Shown in pieces: positions 30,366 through 41,976 of a stretch of 64,000 bases of DNA (the first letter of the stretch is position 1; each line of letters opens with the position of its first letter). This DNA comes from Nitrosopumilaceae archaeon (GTDB lineage: Archaea; Thermoproteota; Nitrososphaeria; Nitrososphaerales; Nitrosopumilaceae): contig OZ242274.1 in NCBI GenBank assembly GCA_965207375.1, forward strand, positions 320,001 to 384,000. Reading direction: 5' to 3'. Under the pieces are notes generated by a model. It made no database searches. It saw only the letters and a program-made list of their open reading frames with translations, and was not told the origin of the DNA. Made by a program: the position numbers and the translations under genes.

Positions 30366-31590
30366 TTATTGCACGTACAGTGCAGCGTTTGATATTACTG
30401 TCCTCCACTTTTGTCCGTGTATAGTTATACCTGCAGCCTCTGCAGGCGTCTTGCCTCCAAGACTCGAGTGACACCGCATGAAATTGTAATAAATATCACA
30501 TCCTGCAAATATTGGCGAGTTTTTACTTTTAATGCCGCGTCTGGGTCGTTGTATAGCACGTAATGTCCCGTTGAATCTTTCTCAGACATTGTTGTTGTTC
30601 TTTTTGGAAATTCCTGCATTTGATATGTGTGTGCAATGTTGATGTATCGCGTTTGGTGCAGCATACACTGATTCAAATGCTTGTGCATATGAGGGCAGGC
30701 CATCGCTTACAAATTCTGTAGGTTTCTTTCCGGCACGGGCTGCTGCAGCTTTGAGTAGGTTTTCTGCATTGTGTCCGTCCTTGCAGTCTGCAACCTCCCA
30801 TGCTAGTAAAAATCGGGTATCATAATCAGTCTCTGCAAAAAGATAATTTTGTTTACCTCTTATTGAAACGTATTCTTCGTCTGCACAGAATCGATTGCCT
30901 GTATTAATTGAAAGTGACATCAGGTATACATACACCATTGTTACAAATTTGATTATCCATCTGTATATCGTAGATATACACTCCCTTTTGTGCTAGCGTG
31001 TCTTGTATTGCACTAGGTGTATGTCCCTTATAGTAGGCATCAAGTGCATCTGTGATTGCCCATGGTATAGTTTGCATGTGTTCCATGCCTCCCTTGTACC
31101 CAAAGACACGATTGCAATTTTTGCATTGGTATCGTTGCGTAGTGCCATGTCTACGCTGTATGTGACCATATTTTATGATGTGTTCGTCACCGCAATGCAT
31201 ACAGTGTGATGGAATCTCTATTAGAACTATTTCTGTGGTTTTTTTCTCAGTATTGTCATCTGCATCTTTGGGCTGTTTGTCCTGGCAAGGCAGCTTAGCT
31301 GCATCTTTGGATTGTTCATCAATTATTGTCTCTGCATCTCTGTCTACAGTATCTGCAATTACTGCTAGGATATGCTTGCATTGAGCCTGTCTGTATTTGT
31401 GATCTGGACAGTCACAGGACCAAGAATTTTTTTTCTGTATCACGGTATATCTGGTGTTATCCTTAGATTGGGACTGTACTGTGTAATGGTTAGGTTTGAC
31501 TTTTTTTATTGCATTTTGTGTTTCTAGTATTTTCAAGGCACGATTTCCACGCCTCTGTGCACCCTTACTCCAGGATACACGTGTACTCAT
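30366..31590 (-). pseudogene. IS6-like DDE transposase with N-terminal SWIM zinc finger, disrupted
   Basis: CDCPD...CKH SWIM, zinc ribbon, ADE, SDGLPSY, NNNV*ERFNGTLR, TPAEAAGI; frameshift near 30975 and stop at 30582. Confidence 0.8.
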
Positions 31591-31837
31591 CCATCTAGTA
31601 ACTCTTGCCATTTTGTCAGTACTGCGCGTAAGCAGTACCGATGTCTTGTTTCGTATAGCCTCAAATTTTTCGTGTAGTTTAAATTTTGATCTTGTATATG
31701 ATTTTTGATATGTTAGTCCCATCATTGCGAAATTCGATGGGACTACATGTCGTGATACATTTGGATCATGTGGGTTAACAAATTTTGAAAAAATGGTTAA
31801 ATTTTTGATCTCTTTTACCTGCACAAGAACAAACTAT

Positions 31838-33551
31838 GTAACAATTGAAGAAATTTTGTAACATTCCCACTTTCTAAAGTTCCTTATATAGTCAGGCAGT
31901 AAAGCATAAGGATCACCACTATCAGCATAAAATATGCTGCCAGGATTTGATCTTGAGGGAATAGATTGGAAGAATCCCGATGTCAACAGGCTTTTCGAGG
32001 TTCTTACTGAAAAATTTGATCAAATGGATAAACAAATTAAAGATCTACAAAAAGACAATCATCTAAAAGATGTAAAAAGTGAACAAGTGATTGCAGAAAA
32101 TAAACAGCTAAAAGAAGAAATGGTTCAACTAAAAAAACTCATAGCAAAGCTGCAAAAGAAAAAAACAAGATCCAGTCATGTCAGTAGCTATAACACCAGA
32201 GAGTACAAGGGATACCCAAAGATCAAAAAACAAAAGACACAGCCAAAATATACACAGCAAGAATCTGAGACTAACAATCTAACCATAGATCACAAGTTTT
32301 GTCCACAATGTGGTAATGCTCTTGCAGATTCATCAAGCAAATACACCAGAAACGGTGAATCAATAATAGACGGCAAATGGTCTAACGTCAATATGACCAT
32401 TGTAGGCAGATACTGCAAAAAATGTGCACAAATGCAATATGCAAAACCTGTTGACTTTTTGTCCAATGAAAAATTTAGCATCACTATAATGGCAAGAATT
32501 TCTACAATGAGACACCTGACTATATCGTATGGCAAAATACAGAAACTCTTGCAGATGTTTTACGGCAAAAATATGGCAATCTCTACACTAGAAAGACTTG
32601 ATGCGCAAGCCTCAAAATGCCTAGAACCGCTCTACTATTCGCTTCTTGATGAGATTACCAAGGCAAAAATCGTAGGAGGTGATGAAACAGGATGGTATCT
32701 AAACGGCAAACTATGCTGGGCATGGGTGTTTCATTCGATATACACGGTAGTATATCACATCTCACAATCTAGAAGCAAAATGGTATCTGAGACGTTTCTA
32801 AAGGATTTTGAGGGCATACTAATGGGTGACTCTCATCCTGGATGGAGTGTTGCAGACATACTTCAAAAATGCCTGCTACACTATTTCAGGGACATGTACA
32901 GAACGCTTGAAAAAAATGACAAAAAAGAATTTCAGAGCTTCTTTGATGAACTATACAAGATACTAAAATCTGCAATAAAGCTTGGCAAAAAACATGACAC
33001 AGTACAGGACATTGCAAAGGGCAGTATAACCAAACTGCAAAAAAGAATCAATGCACTTGCTACAGGAACATATGAGGATGAAGATTGTCTCATATATGTA
33101 AAGCGACTAAAGCGTGAGGGTAACTCTTTGCTGACATTTCTAAAATATGATGGCGTGCCGTACCACAACAACGCAAGCGAGCAGGCAATGCGCATATTTG
33201 CCATAATGCGAAAAGTATTCTACGGTAGTCGCTCAGAGAAAGGCCTCAAAACCACAGAGATACGTCAAAGCATATTTGCCACATGTGAAAGGCGCGATGT
33301 AAATCCGTATCCGTTTGTCAAGGAATATCTGCGTGGCAATATCAAAGAAATCCCCATGCCAAAAGTCACAGTTGCTGCATGATATAATCAAATGTACAGT
33401 GTATAATACACAAAATTTGATGCTGTATGATCATTTCTATAGTCTGGATATGTTCTGTGCCGGTTCATTGTCGTAAACTGCACTAGGGTTTTGCATGCAG
33501 TTTCATGGATCATCTAAAAACCAGAGTAACTTCAGAAGGTCGATCTGTTAC
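31838..33551 (+). mobile_element. Second IS66-family element (different isoform)
   Basis: Imperfect ends GTAACAATTGA / TCGATCTGTTAC; no matching 8-bp TSD, so the left boundary is uncertain. Confidence 0.65.
31934..33382 (+). CDS. IS66 family transposase
   Basis: Coiled coil, CPQCG zinc finger, GDETGW, QKCLLHYFR, HNNASEQAMR. Confidence 0.92.
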   Translation: MLPGFDLEGIDWKNPDVNRLFEVLTEKFDQMDKQIKDLQKDNHLKDVKSEQVIAENKQLKEEMVQLKKLIAKLQKKKTRSSHVSSYNTREYKGYPKIKKQKTQPKYTQQESETNNLTIDHKFCPQCGNALADSSSKYTRNGESIIDGKWSNVNMTIVGRYCKKCAQMQYAKPVDFLSNEKFSITIMARISTMRHLTISYGKIQKLLQMFYGKNMAISTLERLDAQASKCLEPLYYSLLDEITKAKIVGGDETGWYLNGKLCWAWVFHSIYTVVYHISQSRSKMVSETFLKDFEGILMGDSHPGWSVADILQKCLLHYFRDMYRTLEKNDKKEFQSFFDELYKILKSAIKLGKKHDTVQDIAKGSITKLQKRINALATGTYEDEDCLIYVKRLKREGNSLLTFLKYDGVPYHNNASEQAMRIFAIMRKVFYGSRSEKGLKTTEIRQSIFATCERRDVNPYPFVKEYLRGNIKEIPMPKVTVAA

Positions 33552-34155
33552 GATTTCTCTTAGAGTACAGTAGCAAGTACGATGATCCTTGTGTAAAATA
33601 TTCAGAGATAGCAAAATATTTTTTCAAATACTATTGGCTACAAGAATGTAAATCAAAGCTACGACAGGGACCACAAAATCAGGCAGTTGGAGTAATAGAA
33701 AAGATAAGAGAGGAATTCAAAAAAGATTCGTATCCTGAAACGTTTGAGGAGATAGAAAAAGAAGAAGAACAAAAAATAAAAAATTGCATTAAAAAAATCA
33801 CCCCCATATGCCGCAAGGACGTAATACACAGATTTCAGGGGAAACGTGAGGAGAGTAAGATATTTTACAAGTATTTTGCCAAAGATTACAAGGACAAGTC
33901 AGGTAACATGGGAACAGATCCCAAGGGTGGTATACTGTTAAACCCAGACGCAATGCGATTCTTCAAAAGAAACTTTGTACCGCTATACAAGTCAGTAATT
34001 CTTGAATGGATACGTTTTCTTGACAAGAAAAATTTTGGTGTGCCGTATATAGTAGACAAAATAGAGGGAAACAATACAGGCCCAAGGGATCAGAAAAGAT
34101 TCCTCAAATATCTTAAACTGTTTGAGGATAGGTGTTTTTACTGTAATGACTCTTT
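33552..34155 (+). pseudogene. HNH endonuclease, 5' part (N-terminus removed by the upstream IS66)
   Basis: Stop-free frame FLLEY...KYYW...CFYCNDSL ending at the IS66 TSD. Confidence 0.85.
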
Positions 34156-35649
34156 GTACTTGTTCACCTATTTTTGAGCATTTTTGGCCCTAAATGTACC
34201 GAACCAGCTCTGCTAGATAATCCTGTCCCAGATTCTTCCAGGTAGTAACACACGTATACAGATTGCCTCTACGCTCCATACTTTTTTCAGATCTGAGACA
34301 TCCACGTATTCTCCTGCACACGACATACTCACGCAGGCTCTGCTCTGCAAGATTGCTTGTAGATGGTATACGAGGGTCTATGACAAACCGGAACATGTCA
34401 GGTATGGCCCGTGACAGTTTTGCTACAAATTTACCCACAATTTCATCATTGGCATACCTTTTGACAAGGTTACGTGTTCTTTTTTCCAATTGTACAGCAT
34501 ATGATTCTCTGTAATCAGGTGGTTTGTCTAGGACATGTTTGCCGTCATGGTATATTTTCTGTAGGCATTGTAGTGTATTTTTTGCAATTTTAGAATCTGG
34601 ATTCTTTTGTGATATTGTTTTGATTTCACGTATTAGGTGCGCGTTACATCTCTGGATGATATATCTGCGGTATGGAGGCCATCCGTCACAGGTAATGATT
34701 ATATCTTGTGAGTCACCTATTATTTCCTTGAGTACGTCTGCTCCTCTGCTGGGATTAATTATATAGAAATTCTCACTTGTAATTGGATTATGAAACGTCC
34801 ACAACCATATAGTCTTTCCATGCAGTCGCTCTGATGTCTCATCTGCTATCAGAATCTCGGCTTCCTGTATCTTTTCTTTTATCTCATTTGCAGGCACAAA
34901 TAACGCATCAGAGACTGTATCTATGATGTTTTGAATACCTCCTTCAGATATTTCGATTCCACGTCTTTTCATGGCCTCCTTGTTCATACGTACCGGCATG
35001 CGATGTATGTGATTATCCATTATCTCCTTTATCACTTCATTTCCAAACTGACCCTTTTTTGGAATGTCAACCTCGGGTGTAATGTCAGTAGCTCCACAGC
35101 AGTTGCAATGATACCCATGAATCTTGTGCTTGCAAGTATGTGGAGGAGGAGTTTTCACAATATCAGTTATTATCCTGATTTTGGTGTCTGTATGGTGTAT
35201 GTCTTGAGAACCACACTTGGTACACGTGTCTAATTTGTGCTCTTTTTCTTCATCTACTTTGACCTTGCGGGCTACACCTGTGCGACCAGGTTGTCCTCCC
35301 TGTTTTTTTCCAGTAGATTTTTTGTTCTCTGCACGTATTTTGCGGTCCTGCTTGCGTGTAATGGAATCCTTAGATGGAGGAGTATTGGAATTGTCATGAT
35401 AGTTGTCACGTTTGGTAAGCTCTTGAATTTTTTTATCTTTTTGTAGTAGGAGGTCATCTTTTTGTAATATGATTTTTTGTAAACTTGATACTAGAGATTC
35501 AAGAAGAAGGACTTTTCGGTGTTCCTTTTTGTATGCACTTTTCCAGTTGATGGTACTCATTATACAACTTGTGAGTCAGAATGATTTAGATCTGATGGTG
35601 ATCAAAATTTGAACAAATGGTGAAATTGTAGACACCACGTGAACAAGTA
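34156..35649 (-). mobile_element. IS66 element copy 2; last base of its TIR displaced to 37071 by an IS110 insertion
   Basis: Near-identical to 16637-18129; TSD GACTCTTT at 34148-34155 and 37072-37079. Confidence 0.95.
34190..35560 (-). CDS. IS66 family transposase (intact)
   Basis: 456-aa ORF with leucine zipper, zinc finger and DDE motifs. Confidence 0.93.
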   Translation of the reverse strand: MSTINWKSAYKKEHRKVLLLESLVSSLQKIILQKDDLLLQKDKKIQELTKRDNYHDNSNTPPSKDSITRKQDRKIRAENKKSTGKKQGGQPGRTGVARKVKVDEEKEHKLDTCTKCGSQDIHHTDTKIRIITDIVKTPPPHTCKHKIHGYHCNCCGATDITPEVDIPKKGQFGNEVIKEIMDNHIHRMPVRMNKEAMKRRGIEISEGGIQNIIDTVSDALFVPANEIKEKIQEAEILIADETSERLHGKTIWLWTFHNPITSENFYIINPSRGADVLKEIIGDSQDIIITCDGWPPYRRYIIQRCNAHLIREIKTISQKNPDSKIAKNTLQCLQKIYHDGKHVLDKPPDYRESYAVQLEKRTRNLVKRYANDEIVGKFVAKLSRAIPDMFRFVIDPRIPSTSNLAEQSLREYVVCRRIRGCLRSEKSMERRGNLYTCVTTWKNLGQDYLAELVRYI

Positions 35650-35751
35650 TCCATGTGCCATATTATTAAAAATTCCCCACGTTTTTAATCCCGACATGTA
35701 TCCATGTGCCATATTATTAAAAATTCCCCACGTTTTTAATCCCGACATGTA
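35650..35751. repeat. Exact 51-bp tandem duplication of the IS110 right end
   Basis: TCCATGTGCC...CCCGACATGTA at 35650-35700 and 35701-35751. Confidence 0.95.
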
Positions 35752-35912
35752 TGGCATAGCCTAATTCTAATTTCCAAACCGCAAGGGTCCAAAGATAAAG
35801 AAGCGAATACTTATCCATCCGAGTCAATCGCAATGATTACTCATTATCATTCTTCATTCTTTTATCAGGCATACTGCAATTACAAAACGAGGCAACAAAC
35901 TAGGTCTGTTCC
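35701..35912 (-). ncRNA. Candidate IS110 bridge/seek RNA
   Basis: Three predicted hairpins; internal loop carries an 8-nt match to the element circle junction. Confidence 0.55.
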
Positions 35913-37061
35913 TCATACATGTTCCCGCAACCGGGTATCCTGACTGTAATTTGTAATAAACTCTCTTCTCTCCTTGAGCATTGTGTGAATCATTCGTAAC
36001 ATCTTAGAAGCAGCAGCAACTGTTGCCTTTGATGTTCCTCTCTTTTTTGCAATCCTTATGAAAAATTTTGAAATATCAGAATTTGGTGCACACCTTACAT
36101 GAGACAGGACACTTTCTACTAGAACCCATCTGCATATGTTGCTTCCAGTATGTGTTATGTGTCCATAGTGTACCGTGTTTCCTGATGATCTAACCGATGG
36201 AACCACACCAATATACGAGCACAGCTTGTGTGATTTGACAAATCTTTCAATTCCGTCTATTGTACATGATATCACCAGTGCAGTATATGCTCCAACTCCT
36301 GGAATGCTTTGTAGTAAAGTTGCATCTTCATTTTCCTTTGCTGCCTGACGTATTCTGGCATCAGACTGGAGTATTTTGTCATTGATGAACGTAATTATAT
36401 CCAAATACGCATTTATCCTATAGTCATTTATTGCTCTGACCTGTGCAAGCCAAGGCGTGTAAAATGGTGCACCTGAGGGCTGGATTGATTTTTGTAGTAA
36501 AATTCCATGGACTGAATTTTTCAACCCTGTTCTGTGACGGACCAGAGTATATCGATAGTTTACCAAATCCCTGTTGTCCATGTTTTGTGCTGAGGGCACG
36601 TGGCACGGTATAGTGTATCCTCCTCTGAGTAAATCTGCTAGAATTTTAGCATCTACCTTGTCTGTCTTCTTTTTGGATTCTGCAATGAGTCTATTCATAC
36701 GAGGATTGGACAGTATGACATCTAGGTGTAACTTGTCTCTTATTTGAAAAAATGCAGCCTTCCATACAGATGAGGATTCAATTACTAGTTTTGAATTTGG
36801 ATGTATGTATCCTAGGCAATCCTTGATGTCCTCTGGATTGTTTCGTATCTTCTTGTTGGCCAGTTCATTACCGTCTGCATCCATGATAGATATCTGAATG
36901 GTCTTTTTGTGAACGTCTAGACCGACAAAACAGGGTTCCATAGATACCCTCAATTTTACGGTTTTGTGTTTGTTTGCATTGGTGCTTGAGCGGGATCTTG
37001 TAGAACGGGATCTTGTAGAACTTGGACTACTGCCATCATCTAATTTCCTTGATCGGGGCAC
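35913..37061 (-). CDS. IS110 family DEDD recombinase (start may be ATG at 36941)
   Basis: GLDVHK, IESSS, KKTDKVDA (DEDD); SIPGVG, RSSG serine, VAAASKM. Confidence 0.93.
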   Translation of the reverse strand: MPRSRKLDDGSSPSSTRSRSTRSRSSTNANKHKTVKLRVSMEPCFVGLDVHKKTIQISIMDADGNELANKKIRNNPEDIKDCLGYIHPNSKLVIESSSVWKAAFFQIRDKLHLDVILSNPRMNRLIAESKKKTDKVDAKILADLLRGGYTIPCHVPSAQNMDNRDLVNYRYTLVRHRTGLKNSVHGILLQKSIQPSGAPFYTPWLAQVRAINDYRINAYLDIITFINDKILQSDARIRQAAKENEDATLLQSIPGVGAYTALVISCTIDGIERFVKSHKLCSYIGVVPSVRSSGNTVHYGHITHTGSNICRWVLVESVLSHVRCAPNSDISKFFIRIAKKRGTSKATVAAASKMLRMIHTMLKERREFITNYSQDTRLREHV

Positions 37062-37071
37062 ATATGATTAC

Positions 37072-37434
37072 GACTCTTTAAAGTTTGATAGCAAGACTCA
37101 CGTTGATCACGTGATTCCGTTTGATTACATCGGCGATACGAAAATGTGGAATTTGGTTTTGTCCTGTCAAAAATGTAACTGTGAAAAGCTTGGTAACCTG
37201 CCTCCCTGCTACTTTGTCAAAAGACTGACAAATCGCAATAAAAAATTTAAAAAAATAACTAACGAAGAATTAAACAAAAGCAATGACCGGAAAACTAAAA
37301 AGAACATGAAGGACATAAAGGAGATGCTAGACATGGAGGGCAAAGAGAATCTTGACTGGCATTATGCAAATGCAACCAACCATGGATATCCCATATTGAA
37401 TAACTTTCCAAAAAAAATCAAACGAATTATTTAA
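37072..37434 (+). pseudogene. HNH endonuclease, 3' part
   Basis: DSLKFDSKTHVDHVIPF...WNLVLSCQKCNCEK joins in frame with the 5' part through the TSD. Confidence 0.85.
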
Positions 37435-37511: not shown

Positions 37512-37580
37512 TACGGAATATACAGGTTTTCACTGCCAATGCTACGGAATATACAGGTTTTCACTGCCAATGCTACGGAA
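37512..37580. repeat. 31-bp tandem duplication (2.2 copies)
   Basis: TACGGAATATACAGGTTTTCACTGCCAATGC x2 plus TACGGAA. Confidence 0.9.
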
Positions 37581-37764
37581 CTATATTCTGAACAGAATGA
37601 CTAGTTTACACTAGACAAAAATGGGAAATCTTTTAGAATCAAATCATAGAGACAAAAATCCTTTACAAAAAAGTTACCTATGGATGATGCTCAATGATGA
37701 TTGTACAAACTAAGACATGATGACATGTTAGATCTGGGCACGGATTGTCGCTCTTCACGTAAAT

Positions 37765-41451: not shown

Positions 41452-41660
41452 TGATGGATAATGTAGCCTTTGTAGGACTCGATGTTCACAAGAGAACAGT
41501 ATAGGTCTCAATGATGGATACAGATGGAAACGAAATTGTCAATGGTTCTGTTCCAAATACAGAAAAACAGATCTACAATACACTAGAAAAATTCCCAAAG
41601 GCTTGTACAAATCGTAATGGAATCATCATCCGTATGGAAGACCATATATTTTCAGATTTG
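41452..41660 (+). pseudogene. IS110 transposase 5' remnant
   Basis: FVGLDVHKRTV*VSMMDTDGNEI, then frameshifted VMESSSVWK; parallels 35913-37061. Confidence 0.8.
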
Positions 41661-41976
41661 AAATTCACTAAAGACCTTATGCATAATCGACATTCTAGAA
41701 ATTTGACAGTATCTAGACACAATTAAAGCAAATGTGGTAATTTACACAGTTTATAGCAGATCTAACTAATCAATAGTTTTTCTACATATTTTAAAAAAAG
41801 TTGTGACCCGACAATGACACTTGCGATCAAACTAAACATAAAATGCACAAAATATTCAATACAGATTACAACAAGTTAGGTATGGGCATTGATCAATAGA
41901 TTTGACCTTCTAGTTGCACCGAGGCCTAGAAACGACAAGACAGCAACACCAAAAGAATCTAGTCAGCAAAATGAGA

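What the first reader, a model, noticed from the sequence alone, without database searches (positions are those of the whole stretch)
35640..37079. Archaeal IS110/IS1111 recombinase inserted precisely inside the terminal inverted repeat of an IS66
Seen: the IS66 TIR GTGAACAAGTAC is split as GTGAACAAGTA | IS110 ...ATGATTA | C + TSD GACTCTTT, with a TA core at both junctions. Subterminal IRs are offset asymmetrically, and the DEDD and serine motifs are intact. Established: IS1111-group elements such as IS4321/IS5075 target transposon TIRs in bacteria using RNA guides. Inference: an archaeal RNA-guided element that parasitises and immobilises IS66, reversibly on excision.
Basis: partly seen in the sequence, partly recalled or inferred. 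Interest (0 to 1): 0.75.

Follow-up and report, generated by a model that had tools for sequence, protein, structure and literature searches.

The report
Archaeal RNA-guided IS inside IS66 end
A small jumping gene of the IS110/IS1111 kind, which appears to carry its own guide RNA, sits one base from the tip of another jumping gene (IS66) in a Nitrosopumilus-type archaeon, and relatives elsewhere hit the same spot: an archaeal case of a behaviour already known in bacteria.

Summary
A 1,421-bp IS1111-type element (35650-37070, minus strand) lies between GTGAACAAGTA and the last C of one terminal inverted repeat of a 1,495-bp IS66-family element. That IS66 splits an HNH gene with an 8-bp duplication. 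TA stands at both junctions. The ends show a 7-nt and a 3-nt extension outside a 7-bp subterminal repeat.

I found a bridge/seekRNA (35781-35958). It has two stem-loops, each with an internal loop, and is conserved in 18 of 121 Nitrosopumilaceae genomes searched. Its loops match the donor ends. Across the clade they co-vary with the flanks (0 of 20,000 permutations reach the observed fit). In this copy the 5' guide overlaps the last four codons of the recombinase gene and pairs with the IS66 repeat at 9 of 11 positions.

Four other insertions at IS66-type repeat tips show the same choice (five junctions with the window's):
- a relic in this genome;
- two copies of a 74%-identical relative, in miniature IS66-type elements of another MAG;
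- one contig from a public run.

One further insertion sits at a non-repeat site that fits its guide equally well.

Immobilisation of IS66, and its reversal on excision, remain inference. This is a new archaeal member of a known kind, analogous to IS4321/IS5075.

The parts
33530..34155 (+). 5' part of the host HNH-endonuclease gene, cut by IS66
   Evidence: joining it to 37080-37434 gives one 326-codon open frame. Start is approximate. HNH Pfam hits on the 3' part.
34148..34155 (.). Target-site duplication of IS66, copy 1 (GACTCTTT)
   Evidence: direct reading.
34156..35649 (-). IS66-family element (1,495 bp together with the C at 37071). One of 11 near-identical copies on C1.
   Evidence: 10 further copies at 98.7-100% over at least 1,494 nt. 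PF03050.
34156..34167 (.). Intact terminal inverted repeat of IS66 (GTACTTGTTCAC)
34190..35560 (-). IS66 transposase gene (456 aa, single ORF)
   Evidence: DDE_Tnp_IS66, 2e-33.
35639..35649 (.). Inner 11 nt of the interrupted IS66 repeat (GTGAACAAGTA), on the transposase-upstream end of IS66
35650..37070 (-). IS1111-type (IS110 family) element, 1,421 bp. The only full copy in the genome.
35650..35659 (-). Right end: 3-nt extension (GGA on the element strand) plus 7-bp subterminal repeat
   Evidence: Ends conserved in relatives.
35650..35751 (.). Tandem duplication of the terminal 51 bp of the right end (35650-35700 and 35701-35751). The inner junction reads GGA|TACATGT on the element strand, a 7-nt fit to the target guide.
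   Evidence: period 51, 98% match.. A contig of run X2 carries one unit only.
35781..35958 (-). Bridge/seekRNA: two stem-loops, each with an internal loop. It overlaps the last 46 nt of the recombinase gene, stop codon included (35913-35958).
   Evidence: covariance model R1, 102.4 bits, E 1.5e-21; consensus structure, 13 of 25 pairs with compensatory changes.
35916..35926 (-). 5' target guide GGGAACAUGUA, which also encodes the last four codons. Complementary to the IS66 repeat at 9 of 11 positions.
   Evidence: Clade-wide fit of guide to right flank.
35879..35888 (-). 3' loop of the target stem-loop (GUUUUGUAAU). It matches G-TA-AT of the left junction.
35844..35854 (-). 5' loop of the donor stem-loop (AAGAAUGAUAA). 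Complementary to the 7-nt left-end extension at 6 of 7.
35810..35819 (-). 3' loop of the donor stem-loop (GAUGGAUAAG). AUGGAUAA equals right end + TA + first left-end base, which is the circle junction.
   Evidence: The G/A difference co-varies with the right end in 8 of 8 lineages whose ends were found independently.
35913..36941 (-). DEDD recombinase gene (342 aa from the ATG; the listed GTG start at 37061 is probably spurious)
36991..37021 (.). 15-bp tandem repeat in the left non-coding end
37057..37070 (-). Left end: 7-bp subterminal repeat plus 7-nt extension (TAATCAT on the element strand)
37071..37071 (.). Displaced outermost base (C) of the IS66 repeat
   Evidence: 10 of 11 left-end copies in the genome are followed by C.
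37072..37079 (.). Target-site duplication of IS66, copy 2 (GACTCTTT)
37080..37434 (+). 3' part of the host HNH gene
   Evidence: (PF01844, PF13395).

Best explanation
The insertions happened in two steps. An IS66-family element first inserted into an HNH gene and made an 8-bp duplication. An IS1111-type element of the IS110 family then inserted between the G and the TA of the terminal GTA of one IS66 inverted repeat.

Proposed mechanism:
- The element encodes a DEDD/serine recombinase and, across the end of that gene and its right non-coding end, a bridge (seek) RNA with two stem-loops.
- The donor stem-loop reads the joined ends of the excised circle (right end, TA, left end).
- The 5' strand of the target loop pairs with the top strand of TA + CTTGTTCAC, which is the IS66 repeat.
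- The 3' strand of the target loop reads only G-TA on the other side, because everything beyond the G is variable flanking DNA.
- Recombination at the TA core inserts the circle in one orientation and makes no duplication.

Shown here: the anatomy, the nesting order, repeated use of the same site, the RNA structure, and the co-variation of its loops with flanks and ends.

Inferred: that the RNA is made and bound, that a circle forms, and that IS66 is disabled until excision.
For: Anatomy and nesting.

IS1111 hallmarks:
- 7-bp subterminal repeat with 7/3-nt extensions, set against the definitions read.
- 263 nt downstream non-coding versus 129 nt upstream.

The RNA:
- Conserved architecture in 36 loci.
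- RNAalifold gives 25 pairs, 13 of them with compensatory changes.
- The covariance model finds 4 copies in this genome, each beside a recombinase gene. It finds matches in 18 of 121 family genomes and 8 of 27 genera.

Guide fit across the clade:
- 5' guide against own right flank: mean 7.6 of 10, versus 4.7 (sd 1.1, n=442) for foreign flanks. 0 of 20,000 permutations over 17 guide families reach the observed sum. This copy scores 8 of 10.
- 3' loop against own left flank: 2.65 versus 1.24 of 5, again 0 of 20,000.
- L003 and L027 differ by a matching change in guide and target.
- Five further loci not used to set the rule also fit.

Same site in independent events:
- Relic at C1:579640, GTGAACAAGTA followed by 17 nt of the right end.
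- L021 and L022, 74% relatives, sit in two copies of an ~82-bp IS66-type miniature element. Each has its own 8-bp duplication spanning both elements.
- A contig of run X2 joins a miniature-element end ...GTGAACATGTA to the right end. That fits the guide at 10 of 11.
- L023 sits at a non-repeat site that fits its guide at 9 of 11, as well as the repeat does.
Against: - The guide of this copy fits the IS66 repeat at only 9 of 11 positions. The genome holds 4 perfect sites (one is the guide's own DNA) and 49 one-mismatch sites, none occupied. The 11-mer alone therefore does not explain the choice, or the copy is not active.
- There is only one full copy in this genome.
- Only 2 of 58 repeat tips are occupied.
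- The other 10 left-end copies: nine are fragments of 29-264 bp that have lost their right-hand context, several cut by other repeats, and one (C1:47135-48532) is the left end of a full-length hybrid element.
- One of 11 left ends is followed by T, not C.
- A 56% relative (L002) interrupts an IS66 transposase gene, not a repeat. Some IS66 association may therefore just reflect IS-dense DNA.
- No RNA data and no circle or empty-site read were obtained.
- The right ends used were partly located with the donor-loop motif. That is circular for the donor test, though not for the target test.
Confidence: 0.85

Rival explanations
1. The copy in the window is a fossil. It was inserted by the guided mechanism, but it no longer moves and its guide has drifted. 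This is compatible with the main reading of how it got there.
For: - Single full copy.
- Guide fits at 9 of 11.
- Two internal tandem duplications.
- Ten other left-end copies, nine of them fragments, and a hybrid with another family show a decaying population.
Against: - The 342-codon frame is open and all catalytic columns are kept.
- The RNA scores 102 bits against the family model.
- Run X2 holds a further junction in a different miniature element, with a single 51-bp unit. This suggests recent movement in the population.
Confidence: 0.3
2. The recombinase recognises the site through protein-DNA contacts, and the conserved RNA-like region has another role.
For: - Better guide matches are unoccupied.
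- Left-flank pairing in this lineage is only 2 of 5.
Against: - Guides and flanks co-vary across 17 lineages with different targets.
- Relatives at 24-34% identity are the experimentally RNA-guided family (papers read).
Confidence: 0.07
3. Chance insertion into IS-rich DNA, with no preference for the IS66 repeat.
For: - The genome is full of IS and miniature-element copies.
- L002 lies inside an IS66 gene.
Against: - Five junctions fall at the same base of IS66-type repeats, in this genome, in a second genome (G041) and in a contig from a public run.
- Orientation is always the same.
- 10 of 11 left ends are followed by C.
Confidence: 0.03
4. IS66 and the IS110-type element form one composite unit that transposed together into the HNH gene.
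For: The 8-bp duplication flanks both elements together.
Against: - The outer end would then be a single C.
- Ten other IS66 copies have the intact repeat and no passenger.
- The composite is found nowhere else.
Confidence: 0.02

Closest known systems
IS4321 / IS5075 (IS1111 group, enterobacterial plasmids)
   Same: IS1111-type elements with subterminal repeats. They insert in one orientation at a fixed place in the terminal inverted repeats of another transposon family (Tn21 family). This is known to me only from the title listed in the reference list of PMC11208160 and from mentions in PMC11187229.
   Different: - The host here is an archaeon.
- The target is the outermost 11-12 bp of IS66-type repeats, including miniature elements.
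- Enterobacterial plasmid proteins annotated IS110 or IS110-like are only about 23-25% identical; no hit was named IS5075 or IS4321.
- The original paper (PMC219399) is not held, so I could not compare the position inside the repeat.
ISEc11, ISKpn4, ISPa11 (IS1111 family with experimentally shown seekRNA)
   Same: - The long non-coding region and the RNA lie downstream of the transposase gene.
- The segment that pairs with the top strand comes before the segment that pairs with the bottom strand, and the two overlap at the core.
- Terminal extensions are 7 and 3 nt (PMC11187229, sections read).
   Different: - The subterminal repeat is 7 bp here, versus the usual 11-13 bp.
- The target guide overlaps the last codons of the gene.
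- Nothing has been shown experimentally.
IS621 and ISCro4 bridge recombinases (solved structures 8wt6, 9t56)
   Same: - Same fold families and aligned catalytic columns.
- The RNA has a target loop and a donor loop, each an internal loop read on both strands, around a dinucleotide core (PMC11208160, passages read).
   Different: - They belong to the IS110 group, with the RNA upstream in the left end.
- E-values are only 1e-7 to 1e-9.
- The core here is TA.
Haloarchaeal IS110-family transposases
   Same: They are the nearest annotated proteins in the plasmid collection, at 33-35% identity over 94-97% of the length. Archaeal IS110 recombinases are already catalogued (662 in the preprint passages read).
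   Different: They form a different clade. Their RNAs and targets were not examined here.

Membership tests
IS110 family (DEDD recombinase elements) | [quoted passage not shown] | tested here: met
   2.6e-23 and 1.4e-18, both above the curated cut-offs.
IS110 family (DEDD recombinase elements) | D, E, D, D and the S-G motif present | tested here: met
   D9, E55, D94, D97 and S253 invariant in 7 of 7; the same columns align with IS621 and ISCro4. Which residues are catalytic is recalled knowledge.
IS110 family (DEDD recombinase elements) | No target duplication; a short core shared by donor and target | tested here: met
   one TA in the intact repeat, and TA at both junctions after insertion.
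IS110 family (DEDD recombinase elements) | Element-encoded RNA whose loops match target and donor | tested here: met
   by computation only. Expression and binding cannot be tested with these tools.
IS1111 group | Subterminal inverted repeats of 7-17 bp (definition) | tested here: met
   ATGTGCC/GGCACAT, 7 bp, at the lower limit.
IS1111 group | Asymmetric terminal extensions of 7 (or 6) and 3 nt | tested here: met
   TAATCAT and GGA.
IS1111 group | Longer non-coding region and the RNA downstream of the gene | tested here: met
   263 versus 129 nt; model hit at 35781-35958.
IS1111 group | The top-strand match comes before the bottom-strand match in the RNA | tested here: met
IS1111 group | Recombinase branches with IS1111-group proteins; C-terminal GL-P----S(t)G motif | tested here: inconclusive
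   No tree with ISfinder references was made. The motif reads GVVPSVRSSG here and GLVPSVRNSA in the clade consensus.
IS4321/IS5075 subgroup | Close sequence relationship to those elements | tested here: inconclusive
   enterobacterial plasmid hits annotated IS110 or IS110-like are about 23-25% identical, but none was named IS5075 or IS4321, and no direct comparison with those proteins was made. It works like them; close kinship is unlikely but was not tested directly.
IS66 family (the host element) | DDE_Tnp_IS66 transposase, terminal inverted repeats, 8-bp duplication | tested here: met
   There is a single ORF with no accessory genes; the sub-group name is not given because it would be recalled only.

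The most novel reading that the evidence does not exclude
A lineage of archaeal bridge-RNA recombinases has specialised on the outermost 11-12 bp of IS66-type repeats, both of full elements and of their miniature derivatives. It reads essentially one side of the core only.

By displacing the terminal base pair it would cap that end. It would also place a conserved TATA-like box, 14-21 nt from its right end, so that it reads outward into the IS66 transposase gene, which lies 89 nt downstream on the same strand.

The element would then act as a hyperparasite that both blocks and rewires IS66 in IS-rich Nitrosopumilus genomes. The same box would be an archaeal stand-in for the bacterial circle-junction promoter.
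Probability: 0.2. Interest if true: 0.65.

Novelty: new member of a known kind. Interest (0 to 1): 0.45.

Why it matters
The finding extends transposon-on-transposon targeting by RNA-guided IS1111-type elements from bacterial plasmids to marine ammonia-oxidising archaea.

It also yields a compact natural set of about 17 guide/target pairs, from one conserved RNA scaffold. These could be tested as programmable recombinases.

Two details are unusual:
- A guide that also encodes the C-terminus of its own recombinase.
- Target recognition that is nearly one-sided.

For genome biology, it offers a possible brake on IS66 and miniature-element bursts in very IS-rich Nitrosopumilus genomes.

Tried and rejected
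- Rfam 15 over 35400-37300 at E up to 10 gave two chance hits only. This RNA is not in Rfam.
- The locus C1:114368-117428 first looked like a third nested case: an IS66 end, then 3 kb, then a 37-nt left end, then C. The 3 kb holds GmrSD and Schlafen/AlbA_2 genes, so I dropped it.
- L023 first looked like a third repeat-tip insertion. Searches show that the neighbouring repeated element begins 8 nt further in, so it is counted as a non-repeat site that fits the guide.
- The genome scan for the perfect guide site found no repeated family that fits better than the IS66 repeat.
0 of 116 encode a relative of the recombinase, so no target logo came from there.
- Sequencing runs: no RNA holder was listed. 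The runs laid were contigs only, and no contig joined across the element (no empty site) or showed a circle junction.
- No tree against ISfinder references was made.
- I did not see supplementary tables of the papers (for example the bridge-RNA predictions of PMC11208160). They may already list archaeal members.
- None of the listed papers, or the passages I read, describes this archaeal IS66 targeting.
- Rows dropped before counts:
  - two hits, C1:985065 (misaligned end) and C1:2153576 (does not reach the end).
  - L006, L012, L017 and L070, because the script found no perfect 4-bp hairpin.
  - L040 and L053 were mis-parsed at the first TAA, which lowers the observed score.
Full report
WHAT IS THERE

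The window is G000:C1:320001-384000. Read on the + strand, the region runs as follows:
- GACTCTTT (34148-34155)
- GTACTTGTTCAC (34156-34167)
- a minus-strand gene for a 456-aa DDE_Tnp_IS66 protein (34190-35560)
- GTGAACAAGTA (35639-35649)
- an element from TCCATGTGCC... to ...GGCACATATGATTA (35650-37070)
- a single C (37071)
- GACTCTTT again (37072-37079)

Removing both elements and one GACTCTTT restores a 326-codon open frame with an HNH motif. The order of events was therefore IS66 into the HNH gene first, then the second element into the IS66 repeat.

The IS66 element has 10 further copies at 98.7-100% identity over at least 1,494 nt, all on contig C1. The 11-mer GTGAACAAGTA occurs 58 times. 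Most are ends of these copies or of ~70-80-bp miniature elements with the same ends. 52 are followed by C.

THE INSERTED ELEMENT

Its minus-strand frame carries DEDD_Tnp_IS110 and Transposase_20. It aligns with the solved IS621 and ISCro4 recombinases through the D, E, D-x-x-D and S-G columns. Those columns are invariant in 7 of 7 clade proteins.

In element orientation it starts TAATCAT-ATGTGCC and ends GGCACAT-GGA. This is a 7-bp subterminal repeat with extensions of 7 and 3 nt. The non-coding stretch is 129 nt upstream and 263 nt downstream of the gene.

These are the marks of the IS1111 group, as given in PMC11187229 (sections read) and PMC11208160 (passages read). I did not make a tree against ISfinder references.

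It is the only full copy in the genome.
- Ten other copies of its left end remain. Nine are fragments of 29-264 bp; the tenth belongs to a full-length hybrid element. Counting the window's own left end, 10 of 11 are followed by C.
- Several fragments are cut by other repeats.
- A second family at 43-47% identity has two full copies and its own target. An unoccupied paralogous site for that family exists.

THE GUIDE RNA

Rfam has no match.

Aligning the downstream regions of relatives showed a conserved scaffold. RNAalifold on 21 sequences gives two stem-loops, each with an internal loop around a small hairpin. Of the 25 pairs, 13 show compensatory changes.

A covariance model built from that alignment finds:
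- 4 copies in this genome, each next to a recombinase gene, including 35781-35958 in the window;
- matches in 18 of 121 genomes of the family, in 8 of 27 genera.

Donor stem-loop. The 3' loop carries AUGGAUAA. The G/A difference in this loop follows the right end in 8 of 8 lineages whose ends were found without using the loop. The 5' loop is complementary to the 7-nt left extension at 6 of 7 positions.

Target stem-loop.
- The 5' loop is complementary to the top strand of the right flank, starting at the TA. Over 22 unique guide/flank pairs the mean fit is 7.6 of 10, against 4.7 (sd 1.1, n=442) for foreign flanks. No permutation out of 20,000 over 17 guide families reaches the observed sum.
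- L003 and L027 differ by a matching change in guide and target.
- Five further loci, not used to set the rule, also fit.
- The 3' loop ends in UAA, the core plus the first left-end base. Before that it repeats the left flank: 2.65 versus 1.24 of 5, again 0 of 20,000.

The order (top-strand match first, overlap at the core) is the IS1111 order described in PMC11187229.

THIS COPY AND THE IS66 REPEAT

Here the 5' guide is GGGAACAUGUA (35916-35926). It is also the last four codons of the recombinase gene. Its perfect site would be TACATGTTCCC. The IS66 repeat reads TACTTGTTCAC, a 9 of 11 fit (8 of 10 in the scoring, a level reached by 5 of 442 foreign pairs).

The 3' loop matches only G-TA-AT. 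This fits a target whose left side, beyond the G, is whatever DNA IS66 happened to land in.

INDEPENDENT INSERTIONS AT THE SAME SPOT

(a) C1:579640 has a miniature-element half ending GTGAACAAGTA, followed by 17 nt of the right end.

(b) In a Nitrosopumilus MAG (G041), a 74%-identical relative has four copies.
- L021 and L022 sit between the G and the TA of the terminal GTA of two copies of an ~82-bp IS66-type miniature element. Each pair has its own 8-bp duplication (TCATCTAA, CCTACAAA) spanning both elements.
- GTGAACTC[AG]TAC occurs only 8 times in that genome.
- Their guide differs from ours in step with their target: 8 of 11 positions match plus one wobble pair.

(c) A contig of public run X2 joins a miniature-element end ...GTGAACATGTA to the right end and runs on into the element with a single 51-bp unit. 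That repeat variant fits our guide at 10 of 11.

(d) L023 lies 8 nt outside the end of an unrelated repeated IS. Its site, TACGTGTTCAG, fits its guide as well as the repeat does.

In all of these the right end faces the matching sequence.

WHAT SPEAKS AGAINST, OR REMAINS OPEN

- The genome has 4 perfect sites (one of them the guide's own DNA) and 49 one-mismatch sites for the 11-mer, and none is occupied.
- Only 2 of 58 repeat tips are occupied.
- A 56% relative (L002) interrupts an IS66 transposase gene rather than a repeat.
- No RNA run was listed, and the contigs laid show neither an empty site nor a circle.
- Whether displacing one terminal base pair disables IS66, and whether excision restores it, was not tested. 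Both are reasonable by analogy with the family.
- The copy may be a fossil. Against that stand its intact gene and RNA, and the extra junction in run X2.

THE 51-BP DUPLICATION

The last 51 bp of the right end are present twice. The inner junction reads GGA|TACATGT on the element strand. That is a right-end terminus joined at a TA to a sequence that fits the guide at 7 of 7 positions.

I read this as a recombinase-made event at a pseudo-target inside the element, followed by homologous resolution. Slippage at the short repeat ATAC is the alternative. I did not test either.

COMPARISON AND NOVELTY

The closest analogy is IS4321/IS5075, IS1111-group elements that target the terminal repeats of Tn21-family transposons. 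I saw only the title of that paper, in a reference list; the paper itself is not held.

Enterobacterial plasmid proteins annotated as IS110 or IS110-like are only about 23-25% identical. Haloarchaeal IS110-family proteins are the nearest annotated ones, at 33-35%.

Archaeal IS110 recombinases are already catalogued (662 in the preprint passages read). A 2026 survey notes very IS-rich Nitrosopumilus genomes without mentioning nesting (passages read).

My four literature searches turned up no description of an archaeal IS1111-type element aimed at IS66 ends. I could not see the supplementary tables.

Verdict: a real, well-supported feature, and a new archaeal member of a known kind. It has two unusual details: the guide lies inside the coding sequence, and recognition is nearly one-sided.

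Noticed in passing
window 35650-35751: The 51-bp tandem duplication starts exactly at the element's right terminus. Its inner junction mimics a guide-matched insertion site, so it may be a footprint of recombinase action on its own element.
   Followed up: partly
window 35664-35671, and the right ends of relatives (alignment, one search list): A conserved box (tttaataa, cttataaa, cttaaaaa, tttaaaaa and tttattaa in the alignment) lies 14-21 nt from the right end in the clade. It may be an archaeal TATA box that fires across the circle junction. In the inserted state it would fire outward into the IS66 transposase gene, which lies on the same strand 89 nt away.
   Followed up: no
G000:C1:47135-48532: A hybrid IS110-type element. 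Its left end and N-terminal half resemble the window's family (88% nt over 438 nt). Its right end, RNA and C-terminal half resemble the second family, and each flank matches the corresponding family. This looks like recombination between two elements, hence a genome rearrangement.
   Followed up: partly
G000:C1:625417-626792 and 1528402-1529777; unoccupied site near C1:628054: The second IS1111-type family (43-47% identity) targets ...AATCGGAAC|TA|CTG.... Its 3' loop matches the left flank at 5 of 5 positions.
   Followed up: partly
L002 (G003:C1:896782-900786): A 56% relative interrupts an IS66-family transposase gene. The two halves of the gene flank it.
   Followed up: no
G000 contigs C2-C4: Every IS66 copy, IS110-type copy and repeat-tip 11-mer lies on C1 (2.16 Mb), and none on C2-C4 (2.14 Mb). 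Some C4 stretches printed look like simple repeats. C2-C4 may belong to another replicon or organism, despite the 0.06% contamination figure.
   Followed up: no
window 31934-33382 and 30904-31824: A second, different IS66-family transposase gene (482 aa) lies next to a SWIM zinc-finger ORF.
   Followed up: no
window 41469-41670: A short fragment similar to the N-terminus of the recombinase (51-57% over 21-39 aa).
   Followed up: no
window 37512-37585: A 31-bp tandem repeat, 2.4 copies, just downstream of the HNH gene.
   Followed up: no
G000:C1:114700-117360 (L101): GmrSD type IV restriction gene and a Schlafen/AlbA_2 gene, lying between an IS66 end fragment and a left-end fragment.
   Followed up: partly
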